From the NCBI GenBank assembly GCA_951406725.2, contig OX597825.1, forward strand, positions 58,280,001 through 58,344,000: 64,000 bases of DNA. The letters run 5' to 3'. The position numbers and the translations under genes were made by a program. Under the pieces are notes generated by a model. The model was not told the DNA's origin and made no database searches. It was given only the letters and a program-made list of their open reading frames with translations. This stretch comes from Octopus vulgaris. Lineage: Eukaryota. Position 1 is the first letter of the stretch; every line of letters starts with the position of its first letter. Below, piece after piece: positions 6,621 through 55,911 of the stretch.

Positions 6621-6926
6621 CGTTAATCGAGTCGTTCTCCTTACACAACTTTGGTCAGTTGCTACAGCAACTGTCAATGTTTATTGTGGTACAACGAGAT
6701 TTAATACTGAAGTCTCGATCAAATCTCGTGTTATCTATCATGGCGTCTTACTCTGGTTTGTTTCTCCATTAACTTTCTTCTAAATTTCTTTCTTCCCTTT
6801 TTCATTTGATGTAATTTAAAAAAGAGGAGAAAATAACTATAATAGAAAATAAGCTGTTGTTTGTGATATTTTGTTCATCCAAATACAAACTCGTGGAAGC
6901 TGTGAGCATTGACAGTGTGTTTTATA

Positions 6927-8201
6927 ATGAATCCGTCATCATCGGCTTACAGTGATGATACATATTATCATCAGCATCACCAACGTGGCCAACAGAGTAG
7001 ACCACTACCTCCACCACCAATACCTCCATCACAACAACATCAACCATATGACACAAATAATGACAACTTCTCTTCCAGATCCTACGGCGAGAGCCAACGT
7101 ACGTTCCGCAACTTTCCCCCTAGCGAACAACAGCACCGGGGTACCAGATATAACCATCCTGATGAGGGAAATTATTATAAAGATCATGACTCCAAAAACT
7201 ACCCCCCACCTTACGGCCGAACTGAAGGAGCTTTGCCACCGTATAATTATTCTGATCATCCAAGGTCTAGGCTTGAGCAAGGAAGTAATACTAACAACAA
7301 CAATAATAACACGAGGAACATGTTACATTCGAACTCTCTTCCACCAATCACTAATGACAACAACTACCCGCCGAAATACAGCAGAAGCGGTTTCAGACCA
7401 GAACAGTTTCCTAACACTAACGTACCACCACCACCGCCGCCGCCACGCCCACCGCCATTACACATGCATCAACAAGTGACGACAAGGTTACCGTCACAGC
7501 CACCACCGACTCGTCCTCAACCACCGCTGCCACCACTCATCAGGGACCAAGCTGGATTCTACTCGGGAGTGAATTACATTCCCCAACAGAAGAACGTTGC
7601 AACACCAGAGTATCCGGCCAACTTCAACCTGCCCCCTTTCCCCGGCCTCGACACATCGTGTCCCCCACCTTCCCTGCCGCCTCTGCCACCCCTACCACTA
7701 CCACCGGTGATACCCCATACTTCATCTGCCCCATCCTCTGCTGGTCCATCACCACTGCCTCCACAGTATTTGAAACCTTGTTCTGCACCGATGTATCTAG
7801 GAACCGACAGTTCTAATTCCATTGTTTCTAGCATCCCATCCAATGCCACTTCTGTTCCCCCTCCTCCCCCTCTCGGTCCCAGTTTTATTTCTCCCCCGCC
7901 CCCTCCTCTGGCCGACACCTTAAATACGAATCAATTGCACGGGGATAATAATTTTAATACTCCATCAAACAGTGGACTGTCTGATGTGACTTTAGCGACA
8001 TCAAACTTCAGTGTTCCACCTCCACTCACGCCAGTTTATGGGAACAGGATCCCACAAAAACCTGACAGTTCTGTAGATTCTGAATATTCCCAAATCGATG
8101 ATGCCTTACAACTCCAAAGACAACAAGACAAAGAATGGATTAAGCAAAAGTTTTCCACGAAAATCCAGGACCGGCCTGTAAAGAAACCTTCAACCATCAC
8201 G
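6927..8201 (+). CDS. PDCD7: PDCD7 / U11-59K exon 1 (425 codons, Pro/Asn/Gln/Tyr-rich low complexity)
   Basis: ATG 6927 in the 482-aa ORF; donor ACG/gtatgt at 8202; phase 0 into exon 2. Confidence 0.85.
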
Positions 8202-10740
8202 GTATGTTCAGATTGGAAGATTTTCTTAGCATTTTATTGTTTAGCTCCAGATTGGACAGACGAACGAATGAATGTATTTGACTCGTGTCTTTGTTTCAGG
8301 CATAGTGTATCGAGGAAGACATTATCCAAAGTGTCTTCTGTCTCTTGTATAATTTGAAATGACAATCTACATCTGACAGTGTAGTTGCTAATGTACAAAA
8401 AGATGAGATGGTCACAACTGGAATATCTCTGATCATAGGTCAGCGTGACCAAAGCTGCTTGGTGTTAAATAGCATACGTGAAATATGCTTTCAAGAGTGT
8501 AGATTATGTAATGTTGATATTTCTAACATAAATCGGCATAATTAAATAAATAAAGGGAAAATTGCTTGCAGTATAGAAACTGGTGGTAACAAAGTTGGGG
8601 AAAGGTGGCGATGGTGTTGGGGGTGAAGTATTATCCGAAGTTACACTCCCCTGACATTTTATTTTTCTAAAACGATAAAACTGAAGGGCACCAACTTATA
8701 GTAATACTGATTAGAATGCTTCAGGAAAGAATTACAAGATGGATTCATCAAGCTGAGCCAACTGGTAGGAGACCCAGGAATAGACCGAGAATGAGATGGT
8801 TTAATAATATCCATGGTCTCAGTGGTCTAATGACAGTTGATAAGTCAAGGAGGTGCCTGAGGACTCTCCAAGAATAGTGAGTAGAGAACACGGATGGATT
8901 TGAATATACCCATTTTACTTTTATGCTATTTGTAATGCATTCCTCTTATAAGTTTCAGTTTTAAGGCAGTGTTTATAATGTACTGAGTTAAAGTCTGAGC
9001 CTTGAGTAAATGTGTTGCACAGGTGATTATAAATACTTTGTGGTTCAAATCTAGGCACCATGTTGTGTCCAAGACAGACATTGAATACTCAACAGCTTAG
9101 TCCATTTAGTACCAATGAGTAAAACAGCTTACCATTATAAGCAGCTACACCATTGTAAATTTGAGATGCGTTTCATAAACTTCCACTACTGAGTTCAGTT
9201 TCATGTATATTTTATTGTGAGAAATCGGTGTGGGTATTACAGGTGAAAATATTGTAACTCTTGGGGAAAGTGATTAAGTAATCAGGTTTGGATTTTTCAC
9301 TTGGCAAACCTACAGTTTCTTCATTTTAGTTCTTGTAAATATGCTTAATTGTAAAGTATTAGATGAATATGGCAACAGAATAATCTATAATAGATCAATA
9401 GTTATAGAGTGATATTGATTGGTAGATTATTTTACTGACACAATAAGTAAAACAGCGATCAGTTATATTAATGGATCAAATATGAAATCTGAGGAGAAGA
9501 GCGATGGCTTGTGTCAGTGTAAGAGAATTTGATAAGAGATCAGTTATGGTGAAGGGCATAGTCTCCAATGTTTCTGGCCCTTTGCACTGTGTCTGAGAGT
9601 GGTCATCATTTTTAAGTTCTATGCTGACATAATTTGGATGAAATTTCATGGTCAGATGTCTCTCCTGATGTCAACCTTTATTTGTTTTCATGTATTCCAC
9701 ATCCTCACACATCAGACCTCTGAGCTGTCAGACTTTTTGTTCATTCAGAACATAAACAATACCACCACTGCCCAAGTAGTGTCAATGTAGAGACAGCCTT
9801 CCATACAGTTACTATCAAATTCCATTCACAAGGCATTGATCAGCCCTCTAAAGCAAGAAACATGTTTTGTCTTTTCCCTTCTTTCATTCTTTAATTTCTC
9901 ATCTTCATGCATAAAACCACTCCCCTCACTGTTATAGCTCCCCTCAGTTGAAGGGGATTTAGTCTTGCAAACTTCATGGCTAACTCATTGCAAAAAAGAA
10001 AAATCACAATACAGTGTGTACTGTAAAGTGGATGGTGTTTGGAAGGGCTGTAGAAACCATGCCAAAGCATGGAACACAATGCAGTTTTGGACCTGTCAGA
10101 TCTTGCCATAGATGCTGAAAGATGATTATGATAGTCCTGCCTGTTATTTAAGAAGAGAGTATAAAAGTGTTGTCACTGACATTTTGAGGCTAATTATATT
10201 AATAAGTTATTGCATTGCTTGGATTTAGTAGTTCCTTTCTTGTTTCAAACACATACTCTAATTGATTTATTAGGATGAAAAGCATATAACAGCTATGTTA
10301 ATGAAGATTGCTTTCTTTTTAAATTTAAATATCATGGACATCCTAGTGATTTTGGGATGTGGTACTCCAGGCTGTTATCATTCCCTGGTTAAATATGACT
10401 GCTTTTGAAATAACTCTAACAATCAGGACTATAAATGATCCTTTCACACTAGTGTAAGATTAACAATGGCTAGGTCTGTGCATGTATATATCATATTTCA
10501 TGTGAACGTGAAAATTGATATTAACCCAAAGTGTGCAGAGAAGCACTATTTCATCAACTAATTCCATACTTCAATGTCCCCAGTTAATAATGCGGGTGAT
10601 GGTGATAATCATCTTCATCCACCTAGCTTATACTAATAATAAACTTATATTGTTTATATCGTAATAAACTTTATTGGATCATTGATTCAAATAATATCTG
10701 GTATAATATATCAGTTTTTAAATTCAAATTTGTTATTCAG

Positions 10741-53790: not shown

Positions 53791-54873
53791 CTATACATAC
53801 ACACAAACATATATTTTTTACTTGTTTCAGTCATTAGACTGTGGCCATGCTGGAGCACTTCCTTGACAAATTTTTAATCAAATGAATTGACCTCAGTACT
53901 TATTTTTTAAAGTCTGGTACTTATTCTATCAATCTGTTTTGTCAAACTGTTAAGTTATACGGACGTAAACACACTAACACCTGTTGTCAAGTGGTGGTGG
54001 GGGACAAACACACATATAAAAGTAAAGAACCCTTTTGGTCATGAATGACCATGGAATTGAGCCTAGAATGTTACCCTCCTAGGCACAAGTCCAGGCAAAG
54101 TTGTTTATGGAAGACCAGCAGTCGCCCATACATACTAACCCCCTCTCCCCACGCCACCAATGTTATCCATGAGAAAGGCAAAAGCTGATACATACAGCTT
54201 GGCACAAGTGACATCGGAACTCATTTGTACAACTGAGTGAACTGAAGCAACAAAAAGTCTTGTTCAAGAACACAACACGGCTCGGTCCGGGAATCGAACT
54301 CATGATTGTTATACCGACGCTCCAACCGCTGAGCTATGTGCCTTTACACACACATACACACGGGGTTTTAAGTGCCCTAGGTTATAGTAGAAGACACTTG
54401 CCAAGGTAACATGCAGTGAGACTGAACCCGGAATCATGTGGTTGGGAAGCAAACTTCTTACCACACAGCCACGCCAAAATTATTACTGAATATATAAGAG
54501 TGTGTGTGTGTATTCGTGACCCAAAACATACAGTATGACAGTGTTCTGACGACTTGAATTACCTGGTAGGTAGCTAGTCTTTCCATTTAGCTAGAGTTAT
54601 CTCCCCTCTACATAAAGTCATTAGAATGTTCTCGTCGCTTTGTATATATTTGTATTAAAAAAAAAATTTGTAGTAAATAAACACATAGGAATTAAAATAT
54701 CTTGCAGAAGGTATATGTATATTTATATGTACTTAGATATATGGACGGAGTATTGAAATAGCCATAGCTATCACCATTTCATGGGGAGGGAAAAGGGCAA
54801 GGAATTTCGATGAGATTTTCTTTTTATCCTTCTTCTTTTAGTATTCTTGTATTACAGAGATGCAGCACGGATT

Positions 54874-54923
54874 TTTGTCAGTGAACAGGTCGCGGATTTT
54901 AGCGACGAAAATATTTTGACAAA
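54874..54923 (+). ncRNA. Minimal type I hammerhead-like motif with G3-C8 core, inside a 211-bp element (54853..55063)
   Basis: TTTGTCA-GTGAACA-G-GTCGC(ggatttta)GCGAC-GAAA-ATAT-TT-TGACAAA; element ends TACAGAGATG / CATCTCTGTA. Confidence 0.65.
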
Positions 54924-55911
54924 TTAAACTTAAATGTTGAAGTGAATCGAACGGCTTTTGTGTGTTTCTTAAATGGCTTATAAACACCTTCCACGCTGCA
55001 ATTGTTTTCGTTTCAGCACACGATCTCAGATCAAATTACTTGCTATGCGAGTACATCTCTGTATTACATGTTTATCTTTAAATTTGGAACTTTCATCCTG
55101 TTTTATATTTAATCATAATGAGTTTACTGCTGCAGTGATTAGGTGCTTTTCGCGCAAAGAAAGTTACAAGTGAAAGAATTTTTTGTGCCTGAATTTTTTT
55201 TTTTACATTACCCCTCGCCCCAATTCTTTGCCCGTTTCTTTCCCTAAAAAGTAGGGATAACCATATCAAAACTCTGCTGTTGTTTAACAAGTATAAACCA
55301 AAAACTTTTTTTTTTAAATCACACATCCGATTGTAAACGTATCGAGCAATAAATTTCATACGACAAATATATATATATGCATTCATTATACATTATGATA
55401 TCGCGAGGTTTGACAGCAGAAGTCATGTTTACGAAAAACAATTTTTTAAATCTAAAACTTCGCTCCTAATATTGACAAACAATCACATCGATTTTAAGTC
55501 TAAACTTGGTGTCTGCAACGTTGTCGGTACCCAGCTTTAAACATTGCTTCCAAAATCCATAAGTAGTCTTTTTTTTTTTTAGTTAACCAAACAAACTGAA
55601 CGTCATAGAATTGTCAAAAGATCAAAGATAATCAGATATGCCGACTGACCAAGCACATACACACATATTGAAGTCTCATGACAGCCAATTAGTGTCGGAC
55701 AACTACACACACACACACCTAGAATGATATATATGTATCTAAGTGTGATTACTTATCACTAATATTATGGAATTTACATAGATTTTTGTTTTGTGCCATT
55801 TATGGTTGAAATAAATAGAATTGTCAAAAAATGTTTTCATTCTAGTTTACACACACGCACAAAACCAAATACATAGGCATTTACATACACACATGCATCA
55901 AAAGAATGTAT

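What the first reader, a model, noticed from the sequence alone, without database searches (positions are those of the whole stretch)
54853..55063. Hammerhead-shaped motif with a compensatory G3-C8 catalytic core
Seen: 7-bp stem I (TTTGTCA/TGACAAA), 5-bp stem II (GTCGC/GCGAC), GAAA, and a single A-U stem III closed by the palindromic tetraloop ATAT. The core reads GUGAACA instead of CUGANGA. Established: C3-G8 is a tertiary Watson-Crick pair whose swap can retain activity, and minimal type I hammerheads with palindromic loop 3 typify Penelope-like elements/retrozymes. Inference: a variant ribozyme that CUGANGA-based searches would miss, carried by a 211-bp CpG-retaining element with 10-bp inverted ends and flanking tgtattaca direct repeats.
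Basis: partly seen in the sequence, partly recalled or inferred. Interest (0 to 1): 0.8.

Follow-up and report, generated by a model that had tools for sequence, protein, structure and literature searches.

The report
Swapped-core hammerhead in octopus Penelope element
The stretch is one of several thousand short copies of the front end of a Penelope-like jumping gene in an octopus genome, and it carries a small self-cutting "hammerhead" RNA shape in which two paired core letters are naturally swapped, a variant that standard searches miss but whose cutting has not been shown.

Summary
The "10-bp inverted ends" are not: four of their ten bases belong to a 9-bp target-site duplication. The element is a 202-bp solo head (pseudo-LTR plus ORF start) of a young Neptune-type Penelope-like retrotransposon (PLE). 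A loose core pattern has 7,761 matches, and 92 of the first 100 listed read G3-C8. A near-complete parent with reverse transcriptase and GIY-YIG nuclease was found. Sister families in this genome, and two of three distant relatives, keep C3-G8; the third has U3-A8. The swap is therefore a real, derived double change, with covariation in stems I and II and a palindromic loop 3. Against a required activity: about 250 excess copies carry an unpaired G3·G8 core, a sister family mostly reads C9, and none of 78 copies begins at the cut site. Best reading: a weak, dimer- or protein-assisted PLE hammerhead that is dispensable for insertion. Five literature searches found no natural G3-C8 core, but four key papers were unavailable. 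Two unchecked scan notes report G3-C8 in protist PLEs. Verdict: new variant of a known kind.

The parts
54848..54856 (+). Left target-site duplication (9 bp)
   Evidence: Identical to 55060-55068; other copies have different duplications of other lengths
54857..54857 (+). Extra G present in neither the parent element nor the duplicated target (possibly a reverse-transcribed cap; weak)
   Evidence: Parent has C or T here; duplication ends one base before +1 with a G between in 5 of 29 query-biased copies; mixed in the unbiased set
54858..55059 (+). Solo head of a Neptune-type Penelope-like element: end of the pseudo-LTR plus start of the ORF
   Evidence: 97% identical to the pseudo-LTR head of near-complete element L103; 40 of 40 scored genome hits 96-100% identical
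54874..54880 (+). Hammerhead stem I, 5' strand
   Evidence: Each of 7 pairs kept in 86-91 of 92 young copies
54881..54887 (+). Core G3-U4-G5-A6-A7-C8-A9 (3-8 pair swapped)
   Evidence: 92 of first 100 listed of 7,761 pattern matches read G3-C8; C3-G8 in sister families
54888..54888 (+). Inserted nucleotide between A9 and G10.1 (here G)
   Evidence: Sequence; an insertion here is a hallmark of PLE hammerheads, published consensus H; G also in 3 of 3 distant relatives
54889..54906 (+). Stem II (5 bp) with 8-nt loop
   Evidence: G-C vs A-U change on both sides at the 4th pair in the sister family
54907..54916 (+). G12-A13-A14-A15.1, palindromic loop 3, U16.1, U17; predicted cut after 54916
   Evidence: A15.1 to U16.1 is palindromic: 6 nt in 87 of 92 young copies, 4 nt in 7 of 14 older G3-C8 copies
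54917..54923 (+). Hammerhead stem I, 3' strand
54973..55059 (+). First 29 codons of the PLE ORF; holds the two inferred reverse-transcription start zones
   Evidence: Continues in frame into the RT-GIY-YIG ORF in L103; 3' ends of 78 copies are bimodal
55060..55068 (+). Right target-site duplication (9 bp)

Best explanation
The insert is a dead-on-arrival copy of the first ~200 nt of the RNA of a Neptune-type Penelope-like element. Shown: the parent element (pseudo-LTR, ORF with RT, zinc-finger linker and GIY-YIG nuclease, second pseudo-LTR) and the copy anatomy. Inferred from PLE biochemistry: the element's protein nicks AT-rich DNA and starts reverse transcription inside the RNA at about +148 or +206. 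When it does so near the RNA's 5' end it copies only the head, giving thousands of solo heads with variable duplications, (TA)n flanks and inverted partial partners. The head carries the PLE minimal type I hammerhead (shown as structure and homology). In this lineage its tertiary 3-8 pair was swapped from C-G to G-C and kept through at least two waves of amplification. Inferred: it cuts weakly after U54916, only as a dimer through the palindromic loop 3 (for example the two pseudo-LTR copies in one transcript) and probably with help from the element's protein. A single head stays uncut, which is why solo copies usually include the sequence 5' of the cut site. Cutting is not needed for insertion.
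For: Parent element L103 and intact RT (YVDD), CX3CXXC linker and GIY-YIG motifs. 3' ends: 26 of 78 at +143 to +150 and 47 of 78 at +198 to +209; 5' ends: 37 of 78 at -3 to +4, 0 at +60. This matches the two internal start sites and the use of uncut RNA reported for the anole PLE (PMC11167929). Covariation: the 3-8 pair is G-C in 17 and C-G in 11 of 34 rows, 3 unpaired. Older family search with 3 and 8 left free: 79 C-G and 4 G-C of the first 100 of 322 (counted by hand). Older G3-C8 family: 301 matches. Active sister PLE (61% RT identity) has C3 in 96 and G8 in 100 of the first 100 of 4,597 matches, with two-sided changes in stems I and II. Distant relatives carry C3-G8 (2) and U3-A8 (1) with palindromic loop 3. 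Closing stem III costs 5.4 kcal/mol in the monomer, while the double hammerhead (-28.8) equals two open monomers (-28.2). The C3G/G8C double mutant partly restores cutting in a PLE hammerhead, which needs the element's protein.
Against: No cleavage data. G3·G8 has 299 matches against 52 for C3·C8, and 20 of 22 G3·G8 rows in the tree sit outside the large C3-G8 clade, 17 of them in the young group with the window's copy: masters with an unpaired core did spread. The active sister family mostly reads C at position 9 (85 of first 100), so cores here drift. A single origin of G3 is supported in two trees but a downstream-only tree needs 2 changes, and a 7-row C3-G8 clade nests weakly among G3 rows. 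Rows were gathered partly by patterns that fix positions 3 and 8, and relatedness inflates the pair counts.
Confidence: 0.62

Rival explanations
1. Same PLE origin, but the motif is a vestigial or non-cutting hammerhead. Stems are kept as a fold for protein binding or translation control, and the G3-C8 state arose by drift through a tolerated mismatch.
For: About 250 excess G3·G8 copies; sister family with C9; no 5' ends at the cut site; hammerhead mutants do not affect insertion in vitro; Naiad PLEs proliferate without canonical hammerheads (PMC8557442).
Against: Every large family examined ends in a Watson-Crick 3-8 pair (G-C, C-G, or U-A in one relative). GAAA and the palindromic loop 3 persist while N7, loop II and loop 3 length change. 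U4, G5 and A6 were fixed by my patterns and do not count.
Confidence: 0.27
2. G3 was fixed for a DNA- or splicing-level reason: it creates TCAGT (initiator-like, recalled) and a pyrimidine-CAG acceptor-like site. C8 followed as compensation or as part of an AG|GT site.
For: The sequence shows these motifs directly; PLE promoters and an intron lie in this part of the pseudo-LTR in Drosophila Penelope (PMC2377424); G3 is kept even where position 8 varies (299 vs 52).
Against: Genomic 5' ends pile up about 20 nt upstream of G3, not at it; no joint at these sites in the laid contigs (weak); the sister PLE is active without these motifs.
Confidence: 0.07
3. A non-LTR retrozyme: a non-autonomous 200-nt unit that multiplies as circular RNA and inserts as tandem arrays.
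For: Size and type I hammerhead with palindromic loop 3 fit; solo monomers are described for retrozymes (bioRxiv 10.64898/2026.07.22.740005).
Against: No same-strand neighbours within 1 kb among the first 100 listed matches, but 8 head-to-head pairs; ends are not permuted at the cut site; the sequence is the head of a coding PLE.
Confidence: 0.03
4. A miniature DNA transposon with terminal inverted repeats and a 9-bp duplication.
For: This one copy shows GAGATG/CATCTC ends inside a 9-bp direct repeat.
Against: Variable duplication lengths, ragged 5' ends, two 3' end classes, inverted partial copies and an RT parent.
Confidence: 0.01

Closest known systems
Minimal type I hammerheads in PLE pseudo-LTRs (Cervera and de la Pena 2014, PMC4209133)
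   Same: Type I, one-pair stem III with palindromic loop, nucleotide inserted between 9 and 10.1, G10.1-C11.1, position in the pseudo-LTR, thousands of solo copies, opposite-strand pairs.
   Different: Core is G3-C8; the parts read report C3-G8 and a natural U3-A8 only. The inserted nucleotide is G where their consensus has H. Stem I is longer (7 bp) than stem II (5 bp).
Anolis Poseidon PLE, PAc (Frangieh et al. 2024, PMC11167929)
   Same: Two internal reverse-transcription starts in the ORF 5' end, AT-rich targets, uncut RNA as the main template.
   Different: There C3G/G8C is an engineered partial rescue; here it is the natural family state. Different clade (zinc-finger linker); the hammerhead lies 57 nt upstream of the start codon instead of overlapping it.
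Neptune-clade PLEs (as described in Craig et al. 2021, PMC8557442)
   Same: C-terminal GIY-YIG, CX2-5CxxC linker, tandem and inverted insertions, tail, microsatellite targeting.
   Different: Neptune and Nematis were not separated by a tree here; no named reference elements were available.
Natural core variants of hammerheads (Perreault et al. 2011, PMC3088659)
   Same: Natural covariation at the 3-8 pair.
   Different: Section 8 lists U3-A8, not G3-C8.
Non-LTR retrozymes
   Same: Small size, type I hammerhead, PLE ancestry.
   Different: No tandem arrays seen; includes the ORF start; ends set by PLE reverse transcription.

Membership tests
Penelope-like element (EN+) | Single ORF with RT and C-terminal GIY-YIG | tested here: met
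   YVDD, GIY-YIG Pfam PF01541 above cut-off in the parent family. Pfam did not call the RT; it rests on motifs and on homologs named RT-domain proteins.
Penelope-like element (EN+) | Pseudo-LTR direct repeats overlapping the ORF start | tested here: met
   L103 3804-4921 repeated at 8081-9182, 98%
Penelope-like element (EN+) | Inverted 5'-truncated partner copies and optional tail | tested here: met
Neptune clade | CX2-5CxxC linker between RT and nuclease | tested here: met
   CQSNCAVC at residue 896 of the L097 frame; shared with Nematis
Neptune clade | Phylogenetic placement with reference Neptune RTs | not tested
   No labelled references in the tools
Hammerhead ribozyme | Three-way junction with stems I, II, III | tested here: met
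   stem III is one pair in the monomer, six in the dimer
Hammerhead ribozyme | Consensus core CUGANGA / GAAA / UH read literally | tested here: not met
   G3 and C8 depart from it; no Rfam hammerhead match
Hammerhead ribozyme | Watson-Crick pair between positions 3 and 8 | tested here: met
   G-C here, C-G in sisters, U-A in one relative; a G·G subfamily is the exception
Hammerhead ribozyme | Self-cleavage 3' of N17 | not testable with these tools
   Genomic 5' ends show no pile-up at +60; only contigs were available
PLE minimal hammerhead | Nucleotide inserted between 9 and 10.1; palindromic loop 3 | tested here: met
   G54888; palindromes of 6 and 4 nt in young and old G3-C8 copies
Non-LTR retrozyme | Head-to-tail tandem units each with a hammerhead | tested here: not met
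   None within 1 kb among 100 listed of 7,761 matches
Non-LTR retrozyme | Circular RNA | not testable with these tools
   No raw RNA reads offered
MITE / DNA transposon | Family-wide terminal inverted repeats and fixed-length duplication | tested here: not met

The most novel reading that the evidence does not exclude
This is an unreported natural G3-C8 hammerhead present in about 7,000 copies. The octopus Neptune families also record a ribozyme core crossing a fitness valley in vivo: C3-G8, G3·G8 and G3-C8 all exist as amplified subfamilies, beside a sister family with C9. The two most recently amplified families both carry cores expected to be weakened, so a slow ribozyme may be what lets a PLE keep its capped RNA and flood the genome. 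PLE families scored as lacking a hammerhead may then often carry swapped cores.
Probability: 0.3. Interest if true: 0.7.

Novelty: new variant of a known kind. Interest (0 to 1): 0.47.

Why it matters
The function of PLE hammerheads is an open question. One genome here offers a natural allelic series (C3-G8, G3-C8, G3·G8, C9) on closely related elements with copy numbers and, for the sister family, intact ORFs, so cleavage rate can be set against proliferation. It would also show that the G3-C8 swap, known as an engineered partial rescue, is used in nature, and that CUGANGA descriptors and Rfam undercount PLE ribozymes by thousands of copies in a single genome.

Tried and rejected
Rfam: no hammerhead match. 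Two same-strand pairs taken for full elements were segmental duplications (L088, L089). Expression: no RNA holder listed; the four runs laid were contigs only, so starts, ends, cleavage and circles could not be read, and no splice-like or back joint at the motif was listed. Splicing to the acceptor-like site before +1: no shared upstream exon found; upstream 22-mers hit only microsatellite in the parent, and no canonical donor was found in its 3' region. Cap-derived extra G: clear in 5 of 29 query-biased copies, not separable from target or inverted-copy microhomology in the unbiased set; kept as a weak hint only. Stem I was left out of the formal pair count because MAFFT misaligned it and was counted by anchors instead. 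Viral contigs hold no relative. Rows dropped before trees: 26 of 186 (short alignments) and thinning to 89; 17 name prefixes set aside (16 chimeric or truncated young rows and one duplicate) and 13 of 133. Papers not held: Lunse 2017, Przybilski and Hammann 2007, Hammann 2012, Seehafer 2011. Earlier-findings look-ups by place and by sequence were empty.

Full report
OBSERVATION. The stems, the GUGAACA core, GAAA and the ATAT loop are at the stated places. A descriptor allowing any Watson-Crick 3-8 pair finds only this site in the window; 0 of 100 shuffles match at equal stringency and 7 of 100 at loose stringency. Rfam gives no hammerhead match. The claimed inverted ends are a feature of this copy only: a 9-bp target-site duplication (54848-54856, 55060-55068) supplies four of the ten bases, and other copies continue differently and have other duplications.

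WHAT IT IS. The window lies in a 2.8-Gb genome. A protein that its source names from Octopus vulgaris matches it at 100%, so the host is an octopus. The element is a young repeat: 40 of 596 candidates were scored and all were 96-100% identical. A 17-nt core pattern with positions 3, 7 and 8 free has 7,761 matches against 4 for the reversed control; 92 of the first 100 listed are G3-C8 (counted by hand). Copies that extend upstream (471 exact matches) share more than 1.5 kb that leads to a GIY-YIG domain. L103 (G000:C4, about 22,955,800-22,961,180) is a near-complete element: 1.1-kb pseudo-LTR, ORF starting inside it, RT, CX3CXXC linker, nuclease, second pseudo-LTR; its ORF has a stop and a frameshift. 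The window insert equals the last 202 nt of that pseudo-LTR, including the first 29 codons. The linker points to the Neptune or Nematis clade (PMC8557442, passages); no tree with labelled references was made.

HOW THE COPIES AROSE. In 78 copies picked by a pattern downstream of the ribozyme (from 70 loci among the first 100 of 4,371 matches), 3' ends fall in two groups, 26 at +143 to +150 and 47 at +198 to +209. 5' ends pile up at -3 to +4 (37); 8 run further upstream, 33 are truncated between +6 and +88, and none starts at the cut site (+60; nearest +57 and +55). One inverted piece in the query-biased set starts at +60, with microhomology. The set includes both members of inverted pairs and at least one duplicated locus. 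Two internal start sites, AT-rich targets and uncut RNA as template are what was shown in vitro for the anole PLE (PMC11167929, parts 1-2 of the text). I infer the same mechanism here.

THE SWAP IS REAL AND DERIVED. Older families are homologous over the whole head. With positions 3 and 8 free, the first 100 of 322 matches give 79 C-G, 4 G-C and 17 others (by hand). A separate pattern finds 301 older G3-C8 matches, some of them chance or too decayed to align. The currently active sister PLE (RT 61% identical, N-terminus 39%, intact 1,312-aa frames) has its hammerhead at the same place, with C3-G8, a C-G for U-A change in stem I and an A-U for G-C change in stem II; it has 4,597 matches. On 34 hand-picked rows the 3-8 pair is G-C 17, C-G 11, U-G 2, G-U 1, unpaired 3; 0 of 500 shuffles reach the covariation score, but relatedness and my choice of rows inflate this. 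Loop 3 stays palindromic while changing length between young and old G3-C8 copies; in the C3-G8 sister it is only near-palindromic. Of 8 metagenome loci scanned, 3 have a hammerhead behind the ORF: two C3-G8 and one U3-A8, all with the inserted G and a palindromic loop 3. So C3-G8 is the outgroup state. Trees: G3 rows form one side of a branch at 100/97 and at 93 with positions 3 and 8 masked. A downstream-only tree needs 2 changes, and in a larger tree a 7-row C3-G8 clade nests among G3 rows at 83/82. One origin is likely but not settled. The same core letters appear in laid contigs of a second organism label (X18).

AGAINST A REQUIRED ACTIVITY. G3·G8 has 299 matches and C3·C8 only 52. If 52 is the level of point decay, about 250 copies came from masters with an unpaired core; 17 of 22 such rows lie in the young group with the window's copy. 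The sister family reads C at position 9 in 85 of the first 100. Hammerhead mutants did not affect insertion in vitro, and Naiad PLEs spread without canonical hammerheads. These points fit a weak, dispensable ribozyme, but also a vestige.

MECHANISM. Most likely a slow hammerhead that needs a partner copy: closing stem III costs 5.4 kcal/mol in the monomer, while the double hammerhead is as stable as two open monomers. It probably also needs the element's protein, as in the anole PLE, where C3G/G8C partly restored cutting (also PMC8495972, passage). Full-length transcripts hold two copies and could be cut; a lone 5' head is not, and is copied whole. Shown: anatomy, homology, covariation, end distribution. 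Inferred: dimer use, protein help, any cutting at all.

COMPARISON AND NOVELTY. It is a member of the PLE minimal hammerheads (PMC4209133, parts 1-2 and a supplement search; one supplement file could not be searched) by every structural test but the literal core. Natural U3-A8 is published. Searches for a natural G3-C8 core found only engineered uses. Four papers that could list it were not held, so absence from print is not established; Lunse 2017 is known to me only from recall and from a review (PMC6765202, passages and part of section 11). Also seen: PMC2377424 (abstract, sections 16 and 18), PMC3884650 (passages), bioRxiv 10.64898/2026.07.22.740005 (part 1 of 5). Two unchecked notes of this scan describe G3-C8 plus one extra nucleotide in protist PLEs; I did not test them, and they came after my reading. 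Verdict: new variant of a known kind, interest 0.47.

Noticed in passing
L236:2130-2167 and 6718-6755 (also L237-L240): A second young Neptune-type PLE with intact 1,312-aa ORFs has a hammerhead reading C at position 9 in 85 of the first 100 of 4,597 matches; it too escapes a CUGANGA search.
   Followed up: partly
L255-L284: A subfamily of the same element with an unpaired G3·G8 core amplified to roughly 250 copies.
   Followed up: partly
L242:2497 onward: A distant relative from a metagenome contig has a candidate hammerhead with U3-A8 and C9 behind its ORF.
   Followed up: no
L103:4703-4721 (upstream of the window insert's +1 in the parent): A branch-point-like CTAAC, pyrimidine tract and YAG end exactly where solo copies begin; intron acceptor or transcription start is unresolved.
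   Followed up: partly
L103:8035-8960: The pseudo-LTR carries about 0.9 kb rich in TACA and CA microsatellite, so the element spreads microsatellites as well as inserting into (TA)n.
   Followed up: no
L093:927-3365: A different PLE (RT frame and GIY-YIG frame split by one stop) lies next to a copy of this family.
   Followed up: no
window:46457-49303 (-): 949-aa open frame with endonuclease and RVT_1 domains: a young LINE.
   Followed up: partly
window:6906-8354 (+): 483-aa open frame rich in Pro, Gln, Asn and Ser, with no Pfam match; possibly a large exon.
   Followed up: no
window:54400-54475: End of a common interspersed repeat also seen in many other loci; resembles an octopus tRNA-derived SINE (recalled, not tested).
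   Followed up: no
L088, L089: Copies of the element lie inside 3.4-kb and 2.6-kb tandem segmental duplications.
   Followed up: no
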